From IMG/VR virus record IMGVR_UViG_3300025895_000123: a stretch of 64,000 bases of DNA. One strand, written 5' to 3'. The position numbers and the translations under genes were made by a program. This stretch comes from a virus. Shown here piece by piece: positions 4,125 through 49,319 of the stretch; positions within the stretch are counted from its first letter, which is position 1; each line of letters begins with the position of its first letter. The notes under the pieces are model-generated. The model saw only the letters and a list, made by a program, of their open reading frames with translations, was not told where the DNA came from and made no database searches.

Positions 4125-4159
4125 GGTATTCATGGCATACATATAGAAATATATACAAT
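4125..4159 (+). promoter_or_regulatory. Conserved phage promoter motif driving the RAMP gene and array
   Basis: TTCA ends 4132, 9 nt gap, TATAGAAAT 4142-4150, then ATA-TACAAT. Confidence 0.7.
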
Positions 4160-4238
4160 AGAGGTAGAAGCATGAGGCTTCTACCATTTTAATTTACCGA
4201 ACCTACCCCAGGGGATAAATAGGGGGAAAGGATTTATC

Positions 4239-5204
4239 ATGGCTGAATATAAAACGAAGGAGAATGTCAAATCTCGAAAAAAGAAAAAAGTCTGGGAGTA
4301 CTATCAAGTCAATTTTCTTCTCAGGACTGAGATGTTAGGTACTTGTGCCGAAGCGTCTATCATGGAAATTCATGTCATTGAGAAGGCCAAAAAACAGATC
4401 ACTAAAGCAAATCGACTTGACAAGAAAATTAAGGCGTTAGATAAATTCAAAGGATCAGAAATTTCTGAAGAAAAAGAAATCGATGAACTCCAGGGTGTTA
4501 TTCGCACCTACATGGAACTAACGGGGAAACCAGCTCATGAAACTTTACCCCGTGATAAAAAAGAGTTAATGCAAATTGCTGAAGAAGTCCGAGATGAATT
4601 TCATGAACTTGTTAAAGCGGGTGAAGATGTTAAAGCAACTGTCTTCATGAGAAACACCAAGGTCAACCTTGGAATGGAACTTGAACCAGATGAAGACGAA
4701 ACAACAACATGGCCAATAATATCCACTCATATGCTCCTTGGAAATTTCAAGGAGAATGCGAATATTGTCATCAATGGAACTCATAAAGATGACAAAAAGA
4801 GTTTATTACCAGCACAACTTTCTACTAAGGTAAGTGTCGGTGAACAATTCGCAATGAGTGTCAAACCAGTGGAACCTTTCATGATTCCTAGTAATGACAT
4901 TGTCCGTAATGGTAATGGTGATCGGGAGATTCTTGAAAGAATTGTTAGATGGACAAATAACTTTGGAAAGACTGAAACTGCTATCGCAACATCTGAGATG
5001 CTTCCAGAAGGAACTACTTTCGGATGTATACTCCGTGTTCGGAAAAATTCTCCAATTAGTGAAGACTTTCTTAAAGAATTACTGGAGTATGGTAAAAACA
5101 ATGGCCTTGGTTCCTGGAGAGGTTCTGGGAACAAAGGATCATATTACTGGCAATTAGAGAAACTTGTTGATTACATGGAAGATAAACCGGATGGTTGGAA
5201 CTAA
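4239..5204 (+). CDS. Stand-alone Cas7/Csm3/Csf2-like RAMP-superfamily protein
   Basis: RAMP-like elements: N-terminal strand YYQVNFLLRTEMLGT, PIISTHMLLGNFKENA helix, SEMLPEGTTFGCILRV strand, C-terminal Gly-rich loop GLGSWRGSGNKG; helical insertion after the first strand. Confidence 0.75.
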   Translation: MAEYKTKENVKSRKKKKVWEYYQVNFLLRTEMLGTCAEASIMEIHVIEKAKKQITKANRLDKKIKALDKFKGSEISEEKEIDELQGVIRTYMELTGKPAHETLPRDKKELMQIAEEVRDEFHELVKAGEDVKATVFMRNTKVNLGMELEPDEDETTTWPIISTHMLLGNFKENANIVINGTHKDDKKSLLPAQLSTKVSVGEQFAMSVKPVEPFMIPSNDIVRNGNGDREILERIVRWTNNFGKTETAIATSEMLPEGTTFGCILRVRKNSPISEDFLKELLEYGKNNGLGSWRGSGNKGSYYWQLEKLVDYMEDKPDGWN

Positions 5205-6164
5205 TCATAACGCAATGGTTGGATGCTATTTTGTCCAGTAAATCTTTGTAACGGTGGGATGAATTACATCCTTGTGCCATCATGTTATGGTCATCTAACG
5301 CAATCTCAAGTGTTTTCTAGAGGTGGGATACCGTAGTATCTGTTGTAATTTCGTAACGGCAAACTAGGGTGGATCTTACGTGGATTTGAATTACCTCATG
5401 TATTGGTAAAGCAGTCTGTGATGATTTAAGATGGAGCGTTGTTACGGTCTGGTATCATGAGTTCCCGTTACCTGTGGTGTTGGTAGATTAATATCGTGTA
5501 TGATGCGATTAAGTCTAATCTCGTCTTGGTAAAATGGGATGGTACGATGCGATGTCTAGGTCAAATTAAGTCTTGGAAAGTGGACTGGTCTCTGATTATG
5601 TAACGTCAAGGTACGATACTATGAGGTGTTATGCCATCTTGTATGATAAACTAGAGTACAGGTCGGGTACGATGCGATTTAGCAATGTATCCTTTGTTCC
5701 GGTATTGGCCCAACCAAGTCATGCAATTTGTAGTGTTGGTGAATCGGGGTAGGGTTTGATTGAGTTGAGTATATTTACCTGATTTAATGTCTCGTATTGG
5801 TCCATTTTTGTCTCGAATGTGAGATAGGGTTGGATGGTGTTTTGGTAATATGCGATAATGTGACTTAACTCAAAACATCGCAAAATATCGTCGAGGTAAA
5901 GTAAAGTTCTATAGTGTGAACTAAAGTGTTGGTACGATGCCTAGTACAGGTGTATTTGAGCTGGATTTTTTGATGCAATACATCGTGGCGACAAATAAAA
6001 TAAAGCAAAGTAATAAACTAGTATAAGTATTCGTATTTAGTAACGGTACATTAAAGTGCTGTCCGTTCCGGTACAGGTGGGATGGTATGATGTTCTGTAT
6101 GATATAGTAATATCGGATTATGTGAAGTAGTGGTAAGATGAGATGTGATATAGTCACGTCGCGT
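5205..6164 (+). repeat. Non-coding pentamer-periodic array (NNNNY units punctuated by NNNGGY hexamers); putative guide-RNA array
   Basis: Pyrimidine (mostly T) at nearly every 5th base, e.g. 5613-5663 ACGAT ACTAT GAGGT GTTAT GCCAT CTTGT ATGAT AAACT AGAGT ACAGGT; starts at the RAMP stop codon, ends at a terminator. Confidence 0.85.
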
Positions 6165-6173
6165 CAACACCAA

Positions 6174-6209
6174 GATCCCCTTCTTCGGAGGGGGATCAAA
6201 CTTTTTTTT
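6174..6209 (+). terminator. Intrinsic terminator closing the RAMP-array transcript
   Basis: GATCCCCTTC-TTCG-GAGGGGGATC stem followed by AAAC and T8. Confidence 0.8.
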
Positions 6210-6692: not shown

Positions 6693-8726
6693 TTAAACAG
6701 CTTCTAATGCTTCTATTCTAGATGTTAAGTCATCAATCACAGCTTGTTGAGAAGTAATCAAAGTTTGTTGATCAGTAGATAACGTTGATAACTCCTGCAC
6801 TGATTTAATTAAAGGTGCTATAAACTCTGAATATCTCATACCAAGCATAGGTTCACTCTCACCAGTTTCTGGTACTGCTTTCTCTGGATCTGGATCAGGT
6901 GCTGGAGGTGGAGTCCATCCTCCAGGATATTCTGTCACATATGGATCTATGTATCCAGCAAAATCTACACCAAGATCATCCATTACAGTTTTAACTTCTT
7001 GTGCTATTACACCTTGATGAGGTCTTGTTCCATCATTCCACTTATAAGTCACTGTATTAAGTCTATCAATAAAATCTAATCCAAGACTGTCACCAAGTAC
7101 AGTTTTCAATCTACTATCTGAACTATTAATAGACGTATCTGTTGCCCAAACATCTTTCCAAAGATTAGCAGATCGACCAAGAGACAGATTATTACTAGGA
7201 CTAGGCATAAATGCAGGAACACTTGAATCAATTCCTATCCATCTAGCAGTACCACCAGAGTCTTTAGCAAACGCCCACGTATCACCACCCAAACGCTGAT
7301 TTTCAATATATATGCTATCATTAGAACCTTGACCGCATTTAAAATAACCATATACTGATCCAGCGGAATTCTGGAATCCAATAGTTGGATCATTACCGTC
7401 CTTATCCCAAACAACTATTCCATCAGCAGTAGTACTAAATGCTTTTCCACCAGCATGATATAATGCTACTCTATGCTCACCATAAAAATCAGCACACAAC
7501 TGATTTACAGAGGATTGATCATTTGCTTTAATTTGAACAGGACTATCATCTCTGTTACTACTTATAATAAACTCACTATCATTTACATAGATATAATCAG
7601 TAACATCATCAGTAGTATTATGGAAACCAAAAGATGGATATACTGCATCTTCGATTGTTAATCCCCATGGATTAGTAAATGCTGACTTAACACCATCATG
7701 ATATAGTTCGACAGCCCCATTTAAATTTGCTACTATACCGCTTTCTTCACCTGATCCAAGTAACATATTTAGTGCTGAAGAGCTGTAATGTATTCGCCCA
7801 AGTTTAGCTGAAGCTGAACTGTAGAATGCTACGCTGCAATCTGTACCCGATGTATCAAATAACTCAATACCGTAAGAAGCTGTTCCTAACATTTTGACAT
7901 TATCGTGATACAAATCAACAGCACCATTTGCATTCCCTCTAAGTACTGCTTCATCTGCTGAATTATTTATTCCAACTAGAGAAGAAGATGCAAAAAATCT
8001 ACCAAGTAATGCATCTACATCACTATATAAATTAATATATGCATCAGATCCAGAATTATCGTGCACAGCAACACCATTAGCTGCTGTTTCAAAAGACTTA
8101 GTTCCTGCATAATTAAGTTCAACAGAACCACCACCTGTAAATACACCTGAAACATAATCATTACCCTTAAGAGTAACTGTATTAGCAGGTTGGCCTATTG
8201 TAATATTTGTATCTTCTAACAAACCAATTCTTTGTATAGTAGCTGTTAAGTCAAATACATCATCTCCATCAACTGTAGCTTTAATATCCCCTGTACCAGT
8301 ATCAGTTACTTCGAGAGAACTATTTCCTTCTTCTATTAAACTTGTAACACCAGGAGCAGATAACTCTTCAGCAATATCTATGAATATAGCACAATCACCA
8401 ACCGTTAATGATCCAAATGTCACTGTGATCTGATCGTCCGTATCGTAAGTAATATTCGAAGGCGTTATCAAATCTCCAACATCATCATAACATATAACTA
8501 TTAATTGACTACTATCTAAATTATGAGTAATCACCCAAGATGTTGAACCTGTCGGTTGGTTATGAATATGTCTACGAGTTCTATTTGTTATTGGATACCA
8601 ACTGAGCAACCCGTCAACATCTGTGAAAACATATAATATATCATTAACAAAAACTAAACGACCTTCACTAGGACTATCTGGGAAACTAAGTAATGATGGT
8701 AAGACTGCTCCATGTAATTTAACCAT
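6693..8726 (-). CDS. Tail fibre/spike with C-terminal peptidase S74-type intramolecular chaperone
   Basis: SSDSRLK autocleavage motif, GVIAQEV, RYSEFIAPLIKSVQEL and terminal coiled coil; four V(E/D/A)LY(H/A)xxxK repeats; N-terminal WVITHNL module. Confidence 0.85.
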   Translation of the reverse strand: MVKLHGAVLPSLLSFPDSPSEGRLVFVNDILYVFTDVDGLLSWYPITNRTRRHIHNQPTGSTSWVITHNLDSSQLIVICYDDVGDLITPSNITYDTDDQITVTFGSLTVGDCAIFIDIAEELSAPGVTSLIEEGNSSLEVTDTGTGDIKATVDGDDVFDLTATIQRIGLLEDTNITIGQPANTVTLKGNDYVSGVFTGGGSVELNYAGTKSFETAANGVAVHDNSGSDAYINLYSDVDALLGRFFASSSLVGINNSADEAVLRGNANGAVDLYHDNVKMLGTASYGIELFDTSGTDCSVAFYSSASAKLGRIHYSSSALNMLLGSGEESGIVANLNGAVELYHDGVKSAFTNPWGLTIEDAVYPSFGFHNTTDDVTDYIYVNDSEFIISSNRDDSPVQIKANDQSSVNQLCADFYGEHRVALYHAGGKAFSTTADGIVVWDKDGNDPTIGFQNSAGSVYGYFKCGQGSNDSIYIENQRLGGDTWAFAKDSGGTARWIGIDSSVPAFMPSPSNNLSLGRSANLWKDVWATDTSINSSDSRLKTVLGDSLGLDFIDRLNTVTYKWNDGTRPHQGVIAQEVKTVMDDLGVDFAGYIDPYVTEYPGGWTPPPAPDPDPEKAVPETGESEPMLGMRYSEFIAPLIKSVQELSTLSTDQQTLITSQQAVIDDLTSRIEALEAV

Positions 8727-27578: not shown

Positions 27579-28681
27579 TATCTCTCACCCATTTTTATAG
27601 CGGCACAAACTAGGTCTATAGACTTCTCTGATAGATTTAATGTATTAGGTAATAAAACCGTGTTATCTTGAATATATTTAGCATTTGGAGTATCTTCAAA
27701 TGTTTTCATAAAATAATGAGAATGTGCTTCATAATTACGATATAATATTTGTACTCCAAATTTTCGACCAAATTCTACAATACTTATAGCATTAGATGTT
27801 TCGTATTCATAAATAGATGGTGATTGATGGAATCTTTTAAGTTTAATACCTTTTGTCTCATAATAATTACAAACCTTATCTCTCATTTCTAACAATTCAT
27901 CTATATCATCTAGTTGTTTTGATAAAAAATAAGCATTATGAACAGGCATTACAAAATTAGCACCAATACCTAAATTCGAATGAACAGGAGGTTCATACCA
28001 TCCACCTTGATAAGATAATTCTTTGCATTTTCTATAAAGATTTTCATCATCAAAAAGTATTGCACCACCTTCTCCGCATGTAATTAATTTAGGTACTCCA
28101 AAAGATATAAACCCCACCTTTCCTCTTGTTCCTGAATGCACACCATTAAACCATTGTCCTAAAGCATTACAAGAATCTTCCAATAAAGGAATATTATATT
28201 CATGACAAATAGAAACTACTGAATCTAATTGAGATCCCGTATACCCAGCATGATTAATATAAAGAACAGCGTCACATAAATTCGGATTAAAATCTAATCG
28301 CTTAACTAATATTGATTCATCTAGACAAAAATTATCCTTACGAACATCGATAGTATAAGGAATTATATTTAAAAATCTACAGCAATTCGCCCAAGCAATA
28401 TTACCATAATTAGGGCCTATTACTATTGATCCTTCTTTCAATCCCAAAGCTAACATTCCTAATATAATAGCAGATGACCCACTATTAACAGCAATAGCAT
28501 ATCTACAATTACAATATTTAGCTAATTTTTTTTCGAATTCTTCTCTTATACTAAAATCAGATATTGCTCTAGTTTTTAATATTTCAGATAAGTCTTTAAT
28601 CCATTCATCTTTCATGAAAGGATGATATGGTCTTACCTTCCATTCCCCTTTCATTTGCCAAACATCTCTCTGTTCGTACAA
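27578..28681 (-). CDS. DegT/DnrJ/EryC1/StrS-family sugar aminotransferase
   Basis: AVNSGSSAI, EDSCNALG, SFGVPKLITCGEGG (PLP Lys). Confidence 0.9.
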   Translation of the reverse strand: MYEQRDVWQMKGEWKVRPYHPFMKDEWIKDLSEILKTRAISDFSIREEFEKKLAKYCNCRYAIAVNSGSSAIILGMLALGLKEGSIVIGPNYGNIAWANCCRFLNIIPYTIDVRKDNFCLDESILVKRLDFNPNLCDAVLYINHAGYTGSQLDSVVSICHEYNIPLLEDSCNALGQWFNGVHSGTRGKVGFISFGVPKLITCGEGGAILFDDENLYRKCKELSYQGGWYEPPVHSNLGIGANFVMPVHNAYFLSKQLDDIDELLEMRDKVCNYYETKGIKLKRFHQSPSIYEYETSNAISIVEFGRKFGVQILYRNYEAHSHYFMKTFEDTPNAKYIQDNTVLLPNTLNLSEKSIDLVCAAIKMGER

Positions 28682-29584
28682 TTAAACCTCCATATTATAA
28701 TAATTTCCTCTTCGACAACTAACAATAGATCTTATTTGATTTTCCGCATAAATGTAACAAGTATCACAATATTCTCCTGGTTCAAATAATTTACAACACA
28801 AATGGGATTTAAAAAATTCAGGGCAATAACGACGTCTATAACTACGTTCTAAATAAGCTCCACAATGAACTAATTCTTTTGTTTCAAAATCAATAGTAGG
28901 TTGTGGACTATTCCAACCACACATTACTCTTTTTGCGGCAGCTTTTTGATCTAAATATTTTATTACCTTAATCCTGTCCAAAGTAAAATCAGCATCAATG
29001 TGGTCTTCATTTTTTAATTTCTTAAAAAATGATTCAATTAAATAAATAAAAGAATTGATTCCATGAGTTTTAGGATTCATTATTTTATACCAAAACATAT
29101 CTCTAAAGAATCCTAAATTTTTATAAAACTTATAATTACTATCTAAAGACTCTATCGTTTTTTTAGTTGTTACTACAACATATCTCCATCTTGATCTTTC
29201 TAAAAATTCTAAGTCATCATAAAATTTCAATACTTTTTTATCATCAATTTCTTTAATTAAATGTTCACAATAATAAACATTATCTTTTTCGAGAAAATCA
29301 TATCCCTTCAAACGAACTAATCCGTTTGACATTATTTGTAACCTTTTAACCTTAGGATGAGAATATACTACATGAAATGCATCTTCTAAATTAGTTAATA
29401 ATCCAGGTTCGCCTCCGCAAAACTCAATCATAGTATTATCGGGAATATACTTAAGAATATATTTAAGAAAATCTAAATCGATTTCCGAATTAAAACTAGG
29501 ATTAGTCATCGAATGAACATTACAATAATAACATGTCTTATTACATTTCTTTGTTAATATCAATTCTAAAAAATAAAACTTCAT
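28682..29584 (-). CDS. Radical SAM enzyme
   Basis: CNKTCYYC, GGEPG; C-terminal Cys. Confidence 0.85.
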   Translation of the reverse strand: MKFYFLELILTKKCNKTCYYCNVHSMTNPSFNSEIDLDFLKYILKYIPDNTMIEFCGGEPGLLTNLEDAFHVVYSHPKVKRLQIMSNGLVRLKGYDFLEKDNVYYCEHLIKEIDDKKVLKFYDDLEFLERSRWRYVVVTTKKTIESLDSNYKFYKNLGFFRDMFWYKIMNPKTHGINSFIYLIESFFKKLKNEDHIDADFTLDRIKVIKYLDQKAAAKRVMCGWNSPQPTIDFETKELVHCGAYLERSYRRRYCPEFFKSHLCCKLFEPGEYCDTCYIYAENQIRSIVSCRRGNYYNMEV

Positions 29585-37998: not shown

Positions 37999-38508
37999 TT
38001 ATTCCTTAACATTTTGATCGTTATTACATTGACAGGTGCACGAATAATTACATTGACAGGTGCACGAATAATAACAATTACACGTACACGAATAATTACA
38101 TTGACACGTACATGAATAATCACAATTACACGTACATGAATAATTACACTGGCAAGTGCATGCTTCAATTTTCTCTTCTTTGATAGTTTCTCCAGAGTCA
38201 ATCTCATATTTATTTAATAATAATTCTATTTTCTCCAATAAATCAGGAAGTAATTCAACAACTTCAAGAATTTCCTGCACTGCCTTTATAAGTAATGGAG
38301 AGAATTGACTATAATCAACTTTAAGATGCCCTGTTTCTGAATCTCGAGTAACTATCGAATATTCTTCTGACCTGAATACTTTCATTAAATCTTGTGCTAT
38401 TACGCCAAAGAAAAATCTTTTATCAGAAATATTCTCAGAATGTTTATCCAAATCATATTTAAATTTAACTACTTTAAAACGTTTAACTAACTCTGAATAT
38501 TGCCCCAT
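37999..38508 (-). CDS. S74-like chaperone domain fused to CxCxC(N/D/Y)Y repeats
   Basis: FGVIAQDL..VDYSQFSPLLIKAVQE then 5 full and 1 partial xCTCxCxY repeats; lacks the N-terminal SDxRLK. Confidence 0.75.
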   Translation of the reverse strand: MGQYSELVKRFKVVKFKYDLDKHSENISDKRFFFGVIAQDLMKVFRSEEYSIVTRDSETGHLKVDYSQFSPLLIKAVQEILEVVELLPDLLEKIELLLNKYEIDSGETIKEEKIEACTCQCNYSCTCNCDYSCTCQCNYSCTCNCYYSCTCQCNYSCTCQCNNDQNVKE

Positions 38509-38553: not shown

Positions 38554-39279
38554 TCAGTAGTTACAATTGCAAGTACATGCGTAATTACATTGACAAGTAC
38601 ATGCGTAATTACATTGACAAGTACAACCATAGTTACATTGACAAGTACAACCATAATTACATTGACAAGTACATGCGTAATTACAATTACAAGTGCACAC
38701 ATAATCACATTGACAAGTACATGCGTAATTACAATTACAAGCACATTGGGATTCAAAAGTATTAACTCCCGATCGTAGGCTTTCTATTTGTTCGTTCTGT
38801 ACTAAATCCCCTTCCTCTAAATTTGTAAGATTTAATGATGCATGTGCAGACCAAGGACCGAACAAATTTAACGCTGTTCTCATTGCTATAATTGTGGCAT
38901 TATCTACAGTTCCTCCAACGGAAACTGCTGCAGGAATGCTAGCACCTGCAGATCGTCTAACATTTTCATTAGCAATTGCCGTTCTTAACTCATTAATGTG
39001 TTGACTTTTAATAGGAACACCTGTAAGAGAAGGATCAGTCCAAGAAGTTGGAGTCACTGGAGCAATTTTTCCAGCATGGGATGGACAACCTAATGTTGAA
39101 TGAACAGGACAACTACTTGTCGCTGTATGTGCTGCACAAATTGTCGTTGCTGAATGAGATGTACAAGGTGTAGTATTACTGTGTGCTGTACAAGTTGTCG
39201 TTGCTAAATGAGATGTACAAGTTGTCGTTGCTAAATGAGATGTACATTGTGAGGTACTCGAATGATCTGTACAAGCCAT
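38554..39279 (-). CDS. Cys-repeat protein A (8 CxxH + central domain + 8 CxCxC(N/D)Y)
   Basis: GGAGG RBS; central PIKSQHINELRTAI domain; tandem repeats at both ends. Confidence 0.85.
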   Translation of the reverse strand: MACTDHSSTSQCTSHLATTTCTSHLATTTCTAHSNTTPCTSHSATTICAAHTATSSCPVHSTLGCPSHAGKIAPVTPTSWTDPSLTGVPIKSQHINELRTAIANENVRRSAGASIPAAVSVGGTVDNATIIAMRTALNLFGPWSAHASLNLTNLEEGDLVQNEQIESLRSGVNTFESQCACNCNYACTCQCDYVCTCNCNYACTCQCNYGCTCQCNYGCTCQCNYACTCQCNYACTCNCNY

Positions 39280-39324: not shown

Positions 39325-39612
39325 TCAATAGTTACAATTGCAAGTACAAGAATAGTTACATTTACAGGTACATGCATAGTTACATTGACAAGTACATGCA
39401 TAGTTACATTGACAAGTACAACCATAGTTACATTGACAAGTGCACGAATAGTTACATTGACAAGTGCACGCATAGTTACAATTACAGGTACATGCATAGT
39501 TACATTGACAAGTACAACCATAGTTACATTGACAAGTGCACGCATAGTTACATTGACAAGTACATGCGTAGTTACATTGACAAGTGCACGCATAGTTACA
39601 ATTACAAACGCA
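39325..39612 (-). repeat. 24-nt coding tandem repeat (12 units)
   Basis: ACATTGACAAGTACATGCATAGTT-type units encoding xCTCQCNY; related runs at ~38020-38160 and ~38555-38745. Confidence 0.9.
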
Positions 39613-40248
39613 TTCTGATTCAAAAGTATTAAGTCCTGATCTTAAACTCTCTATTTGTTCATTCTGTATTACATCCCCTTCTTCTAAATTTGCAGGGTCT
39701 AATGATGAATGTGCAGACCAAGGACCAAACAAATTCAAGGCGGTTCTCATTGCTATAACTGTAGCGTTATCTACAGATCCTCCAACGGAAACTGTACCAG
39801 GAATAGTAGCTCCTGCACTTCTTCTAATATTTTCGTTATTAATCGCTGTTCTTAATTCATTTAGATGTTGAGCTTTAATTGCAACACCTGTAAGAGAAGT
39901 ATCAGTCCACGAAGTTGGGACTATAGCAGGAATATGTCCTGTACAACCAGATACTGGTCCTGCTGTGTGTGCTGTACAAGCTGTCGTTGCTAAGTGTGAT
40001 ATACAAGCTGATGTCGCTGCGTGTGCTGAACAAGGAGTAGTATTACTATGTGCCGAACAAGTTGTCGTTACTGAGTGTGATGTACATCCTGAATTAACAT
40101 GGCCACCACAAGTTGTTGTAAGTGAATGTGATACACAAGCTATAGTATTACTGTGTGCTGCACAAGTTATCGTCGCTGAATGAATACCACATGCACCAGC
40201 GCTATGAGTACCACAAGATGTCGTACTTGTGTGATTATTACAAGCCAT
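39325..40248 (-). CDS. Cys-repeat protein B (12 CxxH + central domain + 12 CxCxCNY)
   Basis: Paralog of 38554-39279; AIKAQHLNELRTAIN domain. Confidence 0.85.
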   Translation of the reverse strand: MACNNHTSTTSCGTHSAGACGIHSATITCAAHSNTIACVSHSLTTTCGGHVNSGCTSHSVTTTCSAHSNTTPCSAHAATSACISHLATTACTAHTAGPVSGCTGHIPAIVPTSWTDTSLTGVAIKAQHLNELRTAINNENIRRSAGATIPGTVSVGGSVDNATVIAMRTALNLFGPWSAHSSLDPANLEEGDVIQNEQIESLRSGLNTFESECVCNCNYACTCQCNYACTCQCNYACTCQCNYGCTCQCNYACTCNCNYACTCQCNYSCTCQCNYGCTCQCNYACTCQCNYACTCKCNYSCTCNCNY

Positions 40249-45725: not shown

Positions 45726-48700
45726 TTAAATTATACACATTACAAGCTTTTCTTCTACTTCAAGATTTTCCTCAATAGATTGTCCAATCTTATACAGAAG
45801 TTCGCTCTCTTTTCTAATTCCACGTGCAGCACCTTTACCAGCAGAAACAATTACCTGTCCTTTACCAATTGGTCCTATAACCCTAACAGGAACCTTACCA
45901 GCAAGACCAACTACTGTACCTTCTGATTCAGAATTCATCAGATAACCTGGGTCTTTAGAACATACACCAATAACGTTTTTACAGAGTTCAGTACCGCATT
46001 CCTCAATTTCGTATTCACCAGAATCACAAGCTTTCATAATTGTTCCTGGATATACATCGTCTTCGGCACAAGTATACTTTTCGGCAAGGTCAGCATATTG
46101 AGCAGATGTAGCTTGACCTAATACCGTACCACTGGTCCACAAATTAGTTCCCATAGATACTACAGGTACACCATTATGGCACATTGCTACCTGATGTCCA
46201 GTAGCATAATTACCAGCACCATTATTCGGATTATAATATGCTAATCCATAGAGATTTCCAAAATCAGCACCGGTAGAACTATTTCTATAACCACTACCCA
46301 TAGACCAAATATGTTGAGTCTTAGTATCGTCATAGGTTCCAAAAATACCTTCATCTCTATTAGCATCTGGAACTATAATTGCAGATACTAAATTATCATC
46401 TGCATCAGATCTCAACAATGAAGCACCTTCAACACCATCAACAGTATCTGCATCGAGACCAGATCCAGTACCATCATTACCAGTATGCCAAACGGCGTTA
46501 CCTTCAATTTCTAATCCACCACCGCCACCATTACCAGTAATATTTAGAATCTTACTTGTTCCATCTTGCTCGAGTCTTACATCGTAATCGTTGACAGCGT
46601 TATCCTTAAAATCAATATACCCGCCACCAGTTGCTCGAGCTATTTCAACACTACCAGATGATTTTACTTCAATTCTATTTCCACCACCATTATCAACTGA
46701 TAAAGTACCTCCTGAAAAATTAGCATCGACATCGCTTCTCAAGTAGCTAGCACCTTCGACACCATCAAGAGTATCTGCATCAAGACCAGATCCAGTACCA
46801 TCATTACCTGCATGCCAAACCTCACTACCTTCAACAGTGATACCACCGCCACCACCATTGCCACTAAAATCAAGAATCTTACTTGTGTCAACTTGTTTGA
46901 TTCTTACATCATAATCTTCAGCACTTTGATCCTTAAAATCAATATACCCGTTACCAGTTTCACGAGCTATTTCAATAGCCCCATCAGAAGGATTAAGAAT
47001 AATCCTATTATTAGAATACGACAGAGTAAGCATTAAAGCATTAAAAGTATCATTGATATCACTTCTCAAGTAACTGGCACCTTCAACACCATCAAGCAAT
47101 TCAGAATCTGCAGCTTTCGCAGTGAGTCCTAATTTACCTGCAAGACCATTATCAATGTAGGTTTTAGCAGCAAGTTGACTTGCAAAATCATCATCAGATG
47201 GTGCTCCTCCACCAAGACCTGTATCTGTATTTAAATTAGCAAGATTGACATAGTTATTGACAATTTCTGTTTCAGTGTAATAACGATTATCATGATCATG
47301 ACTGTCATTTACAACAGTCGCTACTATATCAACATTCGCAGAACCATCAAAGGATACAGAACCTGTAACATCACCTGACAAACTAATGTCTCTAGCATTG
47401 TTAAGTTTTGAAGCATTCTCAGCATTACCCTTAAACGTTTGTGCATAAATTTCAGCGAAACGATGTGTAGCATCACCAATATCATATGTAATATCTACGC
47501 TCGGTGTAGAATTACCATCTCTTCTCAAAAATCTTGCATCTTGTTCTATTTCTGTATAATATTGGGTATCATGACTATGACTATCATTTACAACAGTTGT
47601 ACTTATACCAGCGTCACCGGTACCATCAAAAGAAACAGTGCCTGTAACATCCCCAGACAATGTAATATTACGAGCGGTCTCTAGCGCTGTAGCCGTAGCT
47701 GCATTACCATCTAATTCACCATGAATATTTGTTCCATATACATCAGAAAATTTAGCACCTGCTGAACCAAGACTATGCACATTATCTGCATCTGGTAAAG
47801 CATCAGCATCACGGTTCAAATATGAGGAATCATGATTATGAGTACCTAACTCAATATCAGTCATTGATCCTGTAATACCTGCTTGCCATTTATCTGTTAC
47901 TTCATCATATACAAGTCTAGCATTCGGCAAATTACCGCGCTCAATTTCAATACCACCAGTTCCTGCAGTTATACCATCTCCAGTTTGATTGCGATTAAGA
48001 ACAATTTCATTGTCATCTACCTGAAGAACCGCAGTATCTACAGTTGTTTGTGTACCATTAACATAAAGGTCTCCTTGAATGGTTAAATCTCCAGAACTTT
48101 CAATTTCCCCTGCTGTGAGTTTACCAGCAGAATCTAAAGTAACATTATTTGCAGTTATTGTGAAATTATTTGCTCCACCACAATTAACAGTAATTGCATC
48201 ATTACCATCACCTAAAGTAGCTTGTTCTCCAAAAGTAACTGGTGTCTGTACATCAAGAATACCTTTAATACTAACAGTATTATTATCATCGTAACCAAGA
48301 TCTACATCTCCATCTACTCTAAGACCTTGATCAAATCTAACTACAGCGGTACCCGTTGTTCGAATAGAATCTACAGTTGCCATACCACTTGCTTCGAGAT
48401 CTTTACAAGTGATAACACCTTGTCCGACATTTCCTTGTGCATCAAAGGAAAATTTATTGTTAACCGTATCAAAAGATATCGGATAGTTTTGTCCTCCAAC
48501 TTGAAACTGGAATACAGGTCTTACATCAATATCTCCACCACCTGGATTATATGTAAACGGTTTTAGAGTAATGTTCGACGCTTGAATGGTAGGTACTTCA
48601 GCAGCAGATGTCGGAGAAACCCCAGCATCAATTGATAAAGATGTACCTTCAAAAGTTGCATTATCACCTATATGAACCGTAGTGGCTGAAACATAAAGAT

Positions 48701-49319
48701 CCTTAATCTTTTTAGTAGCTGAACCAATATTAAGAGAAGAATCATTTTCAGGAATTAAATCTCCTTTAAATGTAATCTCTTCAGTGGTTCCATTCCAGGA
48801 AAACATAGCATTTAAATCAGTTTGAGTCTGGTCTAGAAGTGCTACAATATCTACACCACTCACTGTAATGCTTGTTCCTTCTAATGTAATATTATCACCA
48901 ACATTAAGAACGCCTGCGCTTACAGCAGGAGCATAGTACTCCGATGCTCCAAATAAAACGCATTTGCCTTTTTCCCCACTCAAGAAAGTTAATGTAATCT
49001 GATTTTCATTATCAACTGTTACACTACTCGGAATCATTTGCACATTATTTTCATCATATACAATAAAGATAACATCTTCAGTTTGCAAATTATGAGTAAT
49101 AACCCAAGATGTTGATGATATTCCTTGAGTAAATACATAATGTTGAGTTTTATTTGTAAGAGGATACCAAGTTTCCTGTGTATCAATAATGGCGTAAAGA
49201 TATAACACACCACCTTTAAAACAAAATTGACCAATACTAGGGCTTACTGGAAAATCAGTTTCTCCATCGAGAACAATGGTTGAACTGTTCATCAATAAAT
49301 TAGTTAATACTTTTGCCAT
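45726..49319 (-). CDS. Long tail fibre with C-terminal G2-type chaperone domain
   Basis: ARNITLSGDVTG.VSFDG and VWH.GNDGTGSGLDAD repeats; YADLAEKY..GKVPVRVIGPIGKG; N-terminal WVITHNL module. Confidence 0.85.
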   Translation of the reverse strand: MAKVLTNLLMNSSTIVLDGETDFPVSPSIGQFCFKGGVLYLYAIIDTQETWYPLTNKTQHYVFTQGISSTSWVITHNLQTEDVIFIVYDENNVQMIPSSVTVDNENQITLTFLSGEKGKCVLFGASEYYAPAVSAGVLNVGDNITLEGTSITVSGVDIVALLDQTQTDLNAMFSWNGTTEEITFKGDLIPENDSSLNIGSATKKIKDLYVSATTVHIGDNATFEGTSLSIDAGVSPTSAAEVPTIQASNITLKPFTYNPGGGDIDVRPVFQFQVGGQNYPISFDTVNNKFSFDAQGNVGQGVITCKDLEASGMATVDSIRTTGTAVVRFDQGLRVDGDVDLGYDDNNTVSIKGILDVQTPVTFGEQATLGDGNDAITVNCGGANNFTITANNVTLDSAGKLTAGEIESSGDLTIQGDLYVNGTQTTVDTAVLQVDDNEIVLNRNQTGDGITAGTGGIEIERGNLPNARLVYDEVTDKWQAGITGSMTDIELGTHNHDSSYLNRDADALPDADNVHSLGSAGAKFSDVYGTNIHGELDGNAATATALETARNITLSGDVTGTVSFDGTGDAGISTTVVNDSHSHDTQYYTEIEQDARFLRRDGNSTPSVDITYDIGDATHRFAEIYAQTFKGNAENASKLNNARDISLSGDVTGSVSFDGSANVDIVATVVNDSHDHDNRYYTETEIVNNYVNLANLNTDTGLGGGAPSDDDFASQLAAKTYIDNGLAGKLGLTAKAADSELLDGVEGASYLRSDINDTFNALMLTLSYSNNRIILNPSDGAIEIARETGNGYIDFKDQSAEDYDVRIKQVDTSKILDFSGNGGGGGITVEGSEVWHAGNDGTGSGLDADTLDGVEGASYLRSDVDANFSGGTLSVDNGGGNRIEVKSSGSVEIARATGGGYIDFKDNAVNDYDVRLEQDGTSKILNITGNGGGGGLEIEGNAVWHTGNDGTGSGLDADTVDGVEGASLLRSDADDNLVSAIIVPDANRDEGIFGTYDDTKTQHIWSMGSGYRNSSTGADFGNLYGLAYYNPNNGAGNYATGHQVAMCHNGVPVVSMGTNLWTSGTVLGQATSAQYADLAEKYTCAEDDVYPGTIMKACDSGEYEIEECGTELCKNVIGVCSKDPGYLMNSESEGTVVGLAGKVPVRVIGPIGKGQVIVSAGKGAARGIRKESELLYKIGQSIEENLEVEEKLVMCII

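What the first reader, a model, noticed from the sequence alone, without database searches (positions are those of the whole stretch)
4125..6209. Lone Cas7-like RAMP co-transcribed with a 5-nt-periodic non-coding array: candidate RNA-guided system without CRISPR repeats
Seen: one transcription unit runs promoter (4142) > 321-aa gene > ~960 nt ORF-free tract > strong terminator (6174-6209). The tract has a pyrimidine, mostly T, at almost every fifth base. Examples are 5220-5255 TGGAT GCTAT TTTGT CCAGT AAATC TTTGT AACGGT and 5613-5663 ACGAT ACTAT GAGGT GTTAT GCCAT CTTGT ATGAT AAACT AGAGT ACAGGT. The last three bases of each pentamer are biased (GAT/TGT/AGT/GGT/TAT) and the first two vary freely. 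It is also more G-rich than the rest of this AT-rich window. Known: the protein carries RAMP/Cas7-type motifs (terminal GLGSWRGSGNKG loop), and Cas7 proteins polymerise along guide RNA with a fixed nucleotide step per subunit. No cas1/2/3/5/6/8/10 or classical repeat-spacer array is present in the window. Inference: each subunit grips the constant part of one pentamer and displays the variable bases as a gapped targeting code, perhaps against competing phages or host genes. From memory and unverified, this resembles recently reported phage VIPR systems (Cas7-related protein with GGY/NN-patterned RNA); this array is far more degenerate than GGY/NN and could be a distinct variant.
Basis: partly seen in the sequence, partly recalled or inferred. 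Interest (0 to 1): 0.96.

Follow-up and report, generated by a model that had tools for sequence, protein, structure and literature searches.

The report
Marine phage VIPR guide-RNA system
A marine phage carries a lone CRISPR-like (Cas7/RAMP-type) protein gene followed by about 1 kb of five-base-periodic guide-RNA genes, which makes it a divergent member of the VIPR systems first described in 2026 preprints, not a new kind of system.

Summary
Gene 4239-5204 (321 aa) is followed by a 969-nt ORF-poor tract and a strong terminator. The tract has a lag-5 autocorrelation 9 SD above shuffles and is the only such region in the 64-kb window.

The protein folds as a RAMP. Its best AlphaFold-DB matches include all five UniProt entries that founded the Vipr family in the VIPR preprint. 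Its best PDB matches are Csm3/Cas7.

All 11 distinct related loci fetched (mostly phage or metagenome contigs) carry a 5-periodic, sense-strand tract beside the gene. No other neighbouring gene is conserved. Against a 76%-identical relative the array has diverged to shuffled level.

So this is a phage VIPR system (Vipr protein plus vrRNA array). It is a new member of a known kind, and the scan has met VIPR on other DNA before.

Three features are particular to this clade:
- The repeat unit is relaxed from GGY/NN to NNN-R-Y. This fits the G-loop keeping W and R but replacing the Asp that reads the first G in the solved complex.
- The array has no tails or ribozymes. It is cut into about 19 blocks of 5n+1 nt by NNNGGY hexamers (19/20 hexamers end in GGY, against 10/162 pentamers). 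This holds across the family.
- There is no accessory (vap) gene.

Targets, expression and RNA processing remain untested. Gapped target searches gave nothing above chance.

The parts
4132..4159 (+). Promoter-like site (ATGGCA, 16 nt, TACAAT) upstream of the vipr gene
   Evidence: Consensus scan gives 9 of 12. The -10 element and downstream leader are conserved in relative L007. Function is inferred.
4163..4185 (+). 9-bp hairpin in the conserved 5' leader, probably at or near the 5' end of the transcript
   Evidence: Found by the hairpin scan. The leader is 79% identical to that of L007, more than the gene at 76%. Its role (mRNA stabiliser or attenuator) is inferred.
4239..5204 (+). vipr gene: 321-aa Vipr-family RAMP (RRM core, helical bundle insert about residues 39-130, beta-hairpin 232-252, G-loop 289-300)
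   Evidence: AF2 model pLDDT 82. Foldseek and VIA hits.
5205..6173 (+). vrRNA array: about 162 NNN-R-Y pentamers and 20 hexamers, forming about 19 GGY-terminated blocks of 5n+1 nt
   Evidence: Lag-5 z = 9. Phase parse and shuffles. The same architecture occurs beside every homologue.
5220..5255 (+). Example block: six pentamers plus hexamer AACGGT (36 nt)
5613..5663 (+). Example block: nine pentamers plus hexamer ACAGGT (51 nt)
6079..6134 (+). Example block: ten pentamers plus hexamer AGTGGT (56 nt)
6174..6209 (+). Intrinsic terminator (10-bp stem with 6 G-C pairs, then a T-run) closing the unit

Best explanation
This is a phage-encoded VIPR system.

Likely mechanism (inferred from the published type II work). 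One transcript runs from a promoter near 4132-4159 through the vipr gene and the 969-nt array to the terminator at 6174-6209. Copies of the 321-aa Vipr protein bind the RNA one per five-base unit. They hold the fixed R-Y end of each unit in the G-loop and thumb pockets and expose the free bases. The exposed bases of successive units together read a gapped DNA sequence in a competing phage or other mobile element, and bound genes are silenced. No nuclease or other partner gene is conserved, and no invariant catalytic acid stands where Csm3 has one. The expected outcome is therefore binding and repression, not cleavage.

Features of this clade.
- Only the second G (here R) and the pyrimidine of the canonical GGY are kept. 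This matches a G-loop that retains Trp293 and Arg294 but has Ser where the solved Vipr has the Asp that reads the first G.
- A full GGY appears only in six-base units (R-N-N-G-G-Y). These recur every 4-12 pentamers and shift the register by one base.

My further inference, held at about even odds: these hexamers delimit individual guides, as nucleation, stop or processing sites. On that reading the tail-less array holds about 19 guides of 7-13 units.
For: Shown here.
1. The 5-nt periodicity is strong and unique in the window.
2. The AF2 model (pLDDT 82) matches A0A1F4YLN4 (E = 4e-13, TM 0.70 by hit), A0A2D6XG06, A0A0F9A1L0, X1U2U4 and A0A661D0E2 within the top 8 AFDB clusters. These are exactly the five entries the VIPR preprint names as founding Viprs.
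3. PDB matches are Csm3/Cas7 of types III, VII and IV, with Z up to 10.2. The nearest ESM-Atlas and BFVD folds are viral proteins.
4. Each of the 11 distinct homologue loci fetched (13 loci including two duplicates) has a lag-5 tract on the gene's sense strand. In most it begins at the stop codon.
5. Hexamers end in GGY in 229/284 cases, against 259/2170 pentamers across nine loci. In the window the counts are 19/20 and 10/162. The boundary consensus is GT | R-N-N-G-G-T.
6. Against relative L007 the gene is 76% identical and the leader 79%. The array is 52.5% identical, the same as shuffled sequence at 51.5 +/- 2.7%. This is the hypervariability expected of guides.
7. The SUSP1 Vipr G-loop CGVGDWR aligns to GLGSWR here. 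The residue roles come from the structure paper.
8. The window is a tailed phage from marine metagenomes.

From the literature: RNP formation, the 1-nt-skip DNA code and silencing were demonstrated for type II VIPR.
Against: - No RNA data exist: no listed sequencing run is RNA. Transcription, processing and binding are therefore all inferred.
- Sequence similarity to a characterised Vipr is confined to the G-loop (hhalign E = 0.01, probability 4%). Membership rests on fold and locus architecture.
- Canonical GGY units make up only about 6% of the pentamers, and no 3' tail, pseudoknot or ribozyme was found.
- No natural target was found. Local searches under six pairing rules equal shuffled controls. 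Eleven exact gapped scans of public collections gave 0 hits nine times and two single hits compatible with chance.
- A homo-oligomer prediction gave no verdict.
Confidence: 0.85

Rival explanations
1. The protein-RNA complex is real but acts on RNA, like the Csm3/Cas7 backbones of type III and type VII CRISPR that are its best solved structural matches. Alternatively it uses a pairing rule other than the published NN-plus-one-skip, for example three paired bases per unit.
For: The top PDB folds are RNA-targeting Csm3 and type VII Cas7. Three unit positions, not two, are free. NNN triplets show a modest stop-codon deficit in several loci, for example 23 against 40 +/- 5 in L001.
Against: The closest folds overall are Viprs, which bind dsDNA. 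The stop-codon deficit is absent in the window and reversed in L005 and L006. No residue equivalent to the Csm3 catalytic Asp is invariant after strand 1. No pairing rule outperformed shuffles in target searches.
Confidence: 0.1
2. The array is not a set of working guides. It could be a decoy or sponge RNA that soaks up a rival phage's Vipr, or a decaying remnant.
For: Orphan and decoy vrRNAs exist in satellites and phages (abstract). The repeat is degenerate. No targets were found.
Against: The array is always paired with an intact, conserved vipr gene on the same strand. The register, the R-Y ends and the GGY punctuation persist while the free positions turn over completely. This argues for selection on function with the cognate protein.
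Confidence: 0.04
3. The periodicity is a DNA-level feature with no RNA role, such as bent DNA, iterons, or an origin or packaging site.
For: A five-base period is half a helical turn. No expression data exist.
Against: The signal is strand-asymmetric and always co-oriented with the RAMP gene: sense parse scores are about twice the antisense scores in most loci. G is roughly twice C on the sense strand in all nine arrays parsed. The tract ends in a terminator. It co-occurs only with a Vipr-fold protein.
Confidence: 0.01

Closest known systems
VIPR systems (Vipr protein + vrRNA): bioRxiv 10.64898/2026.04.26.720920, structures in 10.64898/2026.04.26.720927. The characterised type II example is Escherichia phage phiSUSP1.
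   Same: - Phage-borne.
- A lone RAMP with RRM core, G-loop, thumb and helical bundle.
- No cas genes or CRISPR array.
- A flanking non-coding array of five-base units on the sense strand, with a fixed part and a hypervariable part.
- G-loop Trp-Arg conserved.
   Different: - The protein is 321 aa against 195 aa, with a much larger helical insert.
- The unit is NNN-R-Y, not NN-GGY.
- There are no roughly 40-nt tails or pseudoknots between guides. SUSP1 has them.
- One continuous array of about 1 kb is punctuated by GGY hexamers.
- There is no vap gene.
- Ser replaces the Asp that reads G1.
Non-canonical and 'staggered' VIPR arrays mentioned in the preprints: YNNNG, NNNGG and NNNNG repeats and fig. 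S18 of 10.64898/2026.04.26.720920; WGT/NN and TGH/NN clusters in 10.64898/2026.10.21.760802.
   Same: YNNNG read in another register is NNNGY, the unit seen here. 'Staggered arrays' are described as abutting vrRNAs offset by one nucleotide, where the end of one marks the start of the next. That resembles the tail-less 5n+1 blocks.
   Different: I could not see the figures or data tables, because no supplements are held. Identity with those types is therefore unproven. The text describes a 1-nt overlap, whereas here each block carries one extra base. The GGY-hexamer punctuation is not mentioned in any text I could read.
Cas7-family backbone subunits of class 1 CRISPR effectors (Csm3 type III-A, Cas7 type VII, Csf2 type IV)
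   Same: Same fold: VIA Z 8-10, Foldseek E 1e-6 to 1e-4. In both, one subunit binds per fixed RNA step, with a thumb that flips bases.
   Different: The step is 5 nt, not 6. There is no repeat-spacer array, Cas6, Cas10, Cas5, small subunit or adaptation genes. The guide is non-contiguous. The context is viral.

Membership tests
VIPR system | Protein with RAMP architecture (RRM core, glycine-rich loop, thumb) resembling described Viprs | tested here: met
   The AF2 model has pLDDT 82. All five founding Vipr UniProt entries are within the top 8 AFDB-cluster hits, the best at E = 4e-13 and TM 0.70. The G-loop glycines and Arg are invariant.
VIPR system | Stand-alone locus: no CRISPR array and no other cas genes | tested here: met
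   No CRISPR-like repeats by TRF. No Rfam hit. No PADLOC hit for 10 proteins. No gene other than vipr is conserved across 11 loci. Not every window ORF was screened.
VIPR system | Adjacent non-coding tandem pentanucleotide repeats (GGY/NN 'or a related consensus', at least 4 units) | tested here: met
   Lag-5 z = 9. There are 162 pentamers in runs of up to 12. The consensus is NNN-R-Y. Strict GGY occurs in 10/162 pentamers and 19/20 hexamers. So the 'related consensus' clause is met and canonical GGY/NN is not.
VIPR system | Fixed positions conserved while the N positions are hypervariable between relatives | tested here: met
   Array identity to L007 equals the shuffled control, while the gene is 76% identical. 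The R-Y phase and GGY hexamers are retained in nine loci.
VIPR system | vrRNAs are expressed and co-purify with Vipr | not testable with these tools
   Only DNA runs hold the locus.
VIPR system | Gapped (1-nt skip) recognition of dsDNA targets in competing mobile elements | tested here: inconclusive
   Local searches equal shuffles. Nine of 11 exact scans gave 0 hits. Two single hits are compatible with chance.
VIPR type II (SUSP1-like) | About 100-nt vrRNAs with a conserved 3' tail or pseudoknot, plus a vap1 gene | tested here: not met
   No recurrent tail or hairpin spacer was found, in contrast with SUSP1. There is no conserved neighbouring gene. This system is therefore not type II.
Class 1 CRISPR-Cas (Cas7/Csm3 backbone) | Repeat-spacer array, 6-nt step, and partner Cas5, Cas6 and large-subunit genes | tested here: not met
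   The period is 5, not 6. No array. No conserved partner genes.

The most novel reading that the evidence does not exclude
The tail-less NNN-R-Y arrays cut into 5n+1 blocks by single R-N-N-G-G-Y hexamers may be a VIPR architecture not yet described in print. In it, a one-base register shift at a lone canonical GGY unit delimits tens of guides on one long transcript. One relative's 3.9-kb array holds about 85 hexamers, 69 of them ending in GGY. The relaxed first-G pocket (Ser for Asp) may free a third base per unit and so change the pairing rule.
Probability: 0.3. Interest if true: 0.7.

Novelty: new member of a known kind. Interest (0 to 1): 0.45.

Why it matters
VIPR is a months-old discovery, and its diversity is known mainly from one characterised type.

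This clade is metagenome- and phage-only as far as the searches here show: 77 homologues found by word-indexed search, and none found in the pattern scan of GTDB species genomes. It offers three things:
- A natural experiment on how the repeat-reading pocket sets the RNA motif (Asp to Ser goes with GGY to NRY).
- A compact way of packing many guides without tails or ribozymes.
- A protein-only system with no accessory gene.

If the hexamers prove to be guide delimiters, that would give a simple design rule for multiplexed VIPR guide arrays. It does not change the picture of what VIPR is.

Tried and rejected
- **Curated profile libraries.** Pfam, PHROGs, NCBIfam, PADLOC and PDB sequence searches with the protein gave nothing significant. 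SUSP1 Vipr also has no NCBIfam model.
- **DNA similarity.** blastn of the locus against GenBank phages gave no match. tblastn gave only E >= 0.07.
- **Sequence bridge to SUSP1 Vipr.** jackhmmer from SUSP1 Vipr over the 223 retrieved proteins swept in 214. It started from 16-bit hits in a tiny, biased database, so I do not count it.
- **Ribozymes or known RNAs in the array.** None at E <= 1.
- **RNA folding of the array.** z = -2.65 on 20 shuffles. This is weak, and no recurrent structure was identified.
- **A recurrent AATAAAGTAAAGGT motif.** Seen in relative L008. It is locus-specific, not a family handle.
- **Codon-likeness of the free triplets.** Inconsistent between loci. Positions 1-2 resemble codon positions 1-2 of the phage's genes only loosely.
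- **Target search.**
  - Six pairing rules against the window and loci gave no excess over shuffled units and no self-target.
  - Eleven exact gapped or contiguous scans were run: six of IMG/VR, two of JGI metagenomes and one of GTDB genomes under the NNx rule, plus one contiguous NNN scan and one earlier NNx scan.
  - Nine returned 0 hits.
  - An 18-base pattern hit a GC-rich phage contig once. By my rough estimate about 2 such hits are expected by chance, and there was no extension into neighbouring units.
  - A 22-base pattern from block 5741 matched the ribosome-site/start region of an XRE-type regulator in a Streptobacillus notomytis contig. About 0.07 hits were expected for that scan by my estimate.
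  - I treat that hit as probably chance for four reasons: several scans were run, the skip bases fall on codon position 1 rather than the wobble position, the host is rat-associated and not marine, and the other 18 blocks score at chance on that 53.7-kb contig.
- **Contigs from a second marine study.** They match the gene and its immediate flanks (4145-5236) without a difference, in pieces, and none lies on the array beyond 5236. This is suggestive of array turnover, but the assemblies are thin and a gap proves nothing.
- **Complex prediction with three copies.** No verdict. Not evidence either way.
- **Whole genome.** None is held for this window.
Full report
**1. What is in the sequence**

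A 321-aa ORF lies at 4239-5204 on the + strand. A 969-nt stretch follows (5205-6173) in which no + strand ORF exceeds 59 aa. Then comes a 10-bp G+C-rich hairpin with a T-run at 6174-6209.

Upstream there is a weak sigma-70-like site at 4132-4159 and a 9-bp hairpin at 4163-4185. The hairpin belongs to a leader that is 79% identical in the nearest relative.

Base identity in the tract at lag 5 is 0.386, 9.0 SD above shuffles. Harmonics appear at lags 10 and 15, and there is no lag-3 (coding) signal. A sliding scan shows this is the only region of the 64-kb window with such a signal.

The tract is G-rich and C-poor on the sense strand: 25.6% and 13.7%, against 13.6% and 18.1% for the window.

**2. 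Fine structure of the array**

A dynamic-programming parse follows the pyrimidine phase and allows slips. It scores 250 against 102 +/- 11 for shuffles.

- It yields 162 pentamers with consensus NNN-R-Y. Position 4 is G 46% and A 32%. Position 5 is T 86% and C 13%, a figure partly circular because the parse anchors on pyrimidines. Positions 1-3 are nearly free.
- The phase slips by +1 about every 4-12 units.
- The slip is almost always a six-base unit ending in GGY: 19 of 20 hexamers, against 10 of 162 pentamers.
- The junction consensus is GT | R-N-N-G-G-T. The first hexamer base is never T in the unmerged parse. In the window the preceding unit always ends in GT.

The array is therefore a chain of about 19 blocks of 5n+1 nt, mostly 31-56 nt. 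Each block consists of relaxed units closed by one canonical GGY unit that carries an extra base. Another first-stage note on this same window (e1-5350112) describes the same punctuation. I reached it independently.

There are no recurrent tails, spacer hairpins or ribozymes.

**3. The protein**

No curated profile or PDB sequence matches it.

It has 77 homologues by word-indexed search, and 163 cluster representatives by exhaustive HMMER. All are unnamed, from metagenomes, viral contigs and a few NCBI assemblies. A pattern scan of GTDB species genomes found none.

Invariant residues include G289, G291, R294, G297 and G300 of the terminal loop.

An AlphaFold2 model built on 40 homologues has pLDDT 82 and pTM 0.79.

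- **AlphaFold-DB clusters.** The top hits are A0A1F4YLN4 (E = 4e-13, TM 0.70 by hit), A0A2D6XG06, A0A0F9A1L0, X1U2U4 and A0A661D0E2, all within the first eight. These are exactly the five UniProt entries the VIPR preprint lists as the RAMP homologues that defined the family.
- **PDB.** The best folds are Csm3/Cas7 of types III, VII and IV: Foldseek E down to 1.6e-6, VIA Z up to 10.2.
- **BFVD and ESM Atlas.** The nearest are viral RAMP-like proteins.

I fetched phage phiSUSP1 (KT454805.2). Its 195-aa Vipr (28474-29061, minus strand) is flanked by canonical GGTNN arrays with hairpin tails.

Sequence similarity to the window protein is limited to the helix plus G-loop. There CGVGDWR aligns with GLGSWR. 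According to the structure paper:
- D177 reads G1.
- W178 stacks on G2.
- R179 holds Y3.

Here W293 and R294 are kept, and the Asp position is Ser. In relatives that position is Ala, Gln or Thr. This fits an RNA unit that keeps G2 (as R) and Y3 and has lost G1. The correspondence is an inference from a short alignment, not a structural superposition.

**4. Comparative evidence**

Thirteen loci encoding homologues were fetched. Eleven are distinct, because L009 and L013 duplicate L008 and L012.

- Every one has a lag-5 tract on the sense strand of the gene. In most it begins at the stop codon.
- Two start later: L002 after 1.2 kb, L012 after 0.3 kb. Three loci have a further tract upstream of the gene (L005, L008, L012), and two have a second tract further downstream (L003, L004).
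- Tract length ranges from 0.7 to 3.9 kb.
- Across nine arrays, 229 of 284 hexamers end in GGY, against 259 of 2170 pentamers.
- The commonest run of pentamers between breaks differs by locus: about 4 in L002, L005 and L006, 6 in the window, 7 in L004 and L010.
- Position 4 prefers A in L010.
- Only the vipr gene is conserved among the neighbours. There is no vap-like partner.
- Against L007 (78% protein identity) the gene is 76% identical in DNA and the leader 79%. The first 299 nt of the array are 52.5% identical, indistinguishable from shuffled sequence at 51.5 +/- 2.7%.

So the frame and punctuation persist while the free bases turn over completely. That is the expected behaviour of guide arrays.

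**5. Context**

The window is part of a large tailed phage with tail-fibre and virion proteins. It has 32% G+C. It was seen in marine metagenomes from several studies. No RNA data set holds it.

**6. Mechanism**

*Demonstrated in the literature for type II VIPR:*
- Vipr protomers bind one per repeat.
- They flip out GGY and present NN.
- The NN dinucleotides pair with dsDNA, skipping one target base per unit.
- Binding silences transcription of rival elements.

*Inferred for this locus:*
- The same mode of action, from one long vipr-array transcript.
- Repression rather than cleavage, because no nuclease partner and no invariant Csm3-type catalytic acid are present.

*More speculative, at about even odds:*
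- The GGY hexamers are high-affinity or register-breaking units that delimit separate guides of 7-13 units. That is similar to the 9-16 repeats of published vrRNAs.
- Whether the third free base pairs with the target is open.

**7. Targets**

I could not find any.

- Six pairing rules tested locally gave no excess over shuffled units and no self-targeting.
- Eleven exact scans of public collections gave nine blanks.
- One 18-base hit is at chance level by my estimate.
- One 22-of-22 hit lies on the start region of an XRE-type regulator in Streptobacillus notomytis.

I regard the last hit as probably fortuitous. About 0.07 hits were expected for that scan alone by my estimate. The codon phase is wrong and the habitat is implausible. 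The other 18 blocks do not converge on that contig. Exact matching is a blunt tool here, so absence of targets is weak evidence.

**8. Comparison with what is known, and novelty**

The system meets the defining features of VIPR that can be tested in silico. It fails those specific to type II (tails, vap1).

The preprint's methods already mention YNNNG-type repeats and 'staggered' abutting vrRNAs. A later preprint lists WGT/NN-like motifs next to Vipr folds. The supplements that would allow a type assignment are not held.

The scan has also met VIPR repeatedly on other DNA.

I therefore rate this a new member of a known kind. There is a moderate chance that the GGY-hexamer punctuation, the relaxed pocket and the vap-less, tail-less layout amount to an undescribed variant.

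Noticed in passing
window 4125-4238 (hairpin 4163-4185); L007 1580-1692: The 5' leader of the vipr gene, including a 9-bp hairpin just after the -10 box and a CCCC...GGGGG element, is 79% identical between two phages whose vipr genes are 76% identical and whose arrays are unrelated. This suggests a conserved regulatory or stabilising RNA element.
   Followed up: partly
L001 4865-8826: A relative on a 109-kb viral contig carries a 3.9-kb continuous array of 673 pentamers and 85 hexamers (69 ending in GGY). That would be on the order of 85 guide blocks, very large for a phage.
   Followed up: partly
window 4145-5236, against runs X3-X5: Contigs from a second marine study match the vipr gene and its immediate flanks, in pieces, without a single difference. 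They stop at 5236, and none covers the array beyond that point. This hints that strains share the gene but differ in guides. The assemblies are thin, so it is only a hint.
   Followed up: partly
L015 4840-4871 (-), Streptobacillus notomytis LJRV01000092.1: The free dinucleotides of block 5741-5795, read with one skipped base, match 22 of 22 positions across the ribosome site and start codon of an XRE-type HTH regulator. About 0.07 hits were expected by chance for that scan by my estimate, and no other block matches the contig.
   Followed up: yes
window 38023-38160, 38557-38746, 39328-39607, with 27-nt repeats at 39122-39246 and 39963-40086: Three consecutive minus-strand ORFs carry related in-frame 24-nt tandem repeats (up to 11.7 copies). 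Two of them also carry 27-nt repeats. They are probably paralogous repeat-containing structural proteins.
   Followed up: no
window 6693-8726 (-) and 45726-49319 (-): Two tail-fibre-like proteins share the same N-terminal module (phrog_21918, residues 13-127). This looks like a common anchor domain on two different receptor-binding proteins.
   Followed up: no
window 4239 against 4332: The public protein record for this gene starts at Met32 (290 aa). The longer 321-aa reading includes the first beta-strand (residues 19-28), which is conserved in all homologues, so the deposited start is probably too short.
   Followed up: partly
L012 2930-4053, 5126-5951 and 7301-8801: In a 172-kb phage contig the vipr gene has arrays on both sides. 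An IS605-type TnpB/OrfB pair lies 2 kb upstream, and phage topoisomerase II genes follow the array.
   Followed up: no
L008 6025-6935: The motif AATAAAGTAAAGGT recurs five times inside one relative's array at irregular spacing. AAAGT units also cluster next to hexamers in several loci. These may be a preferred boundary unit or a repeated guide.
   Followed up: partly
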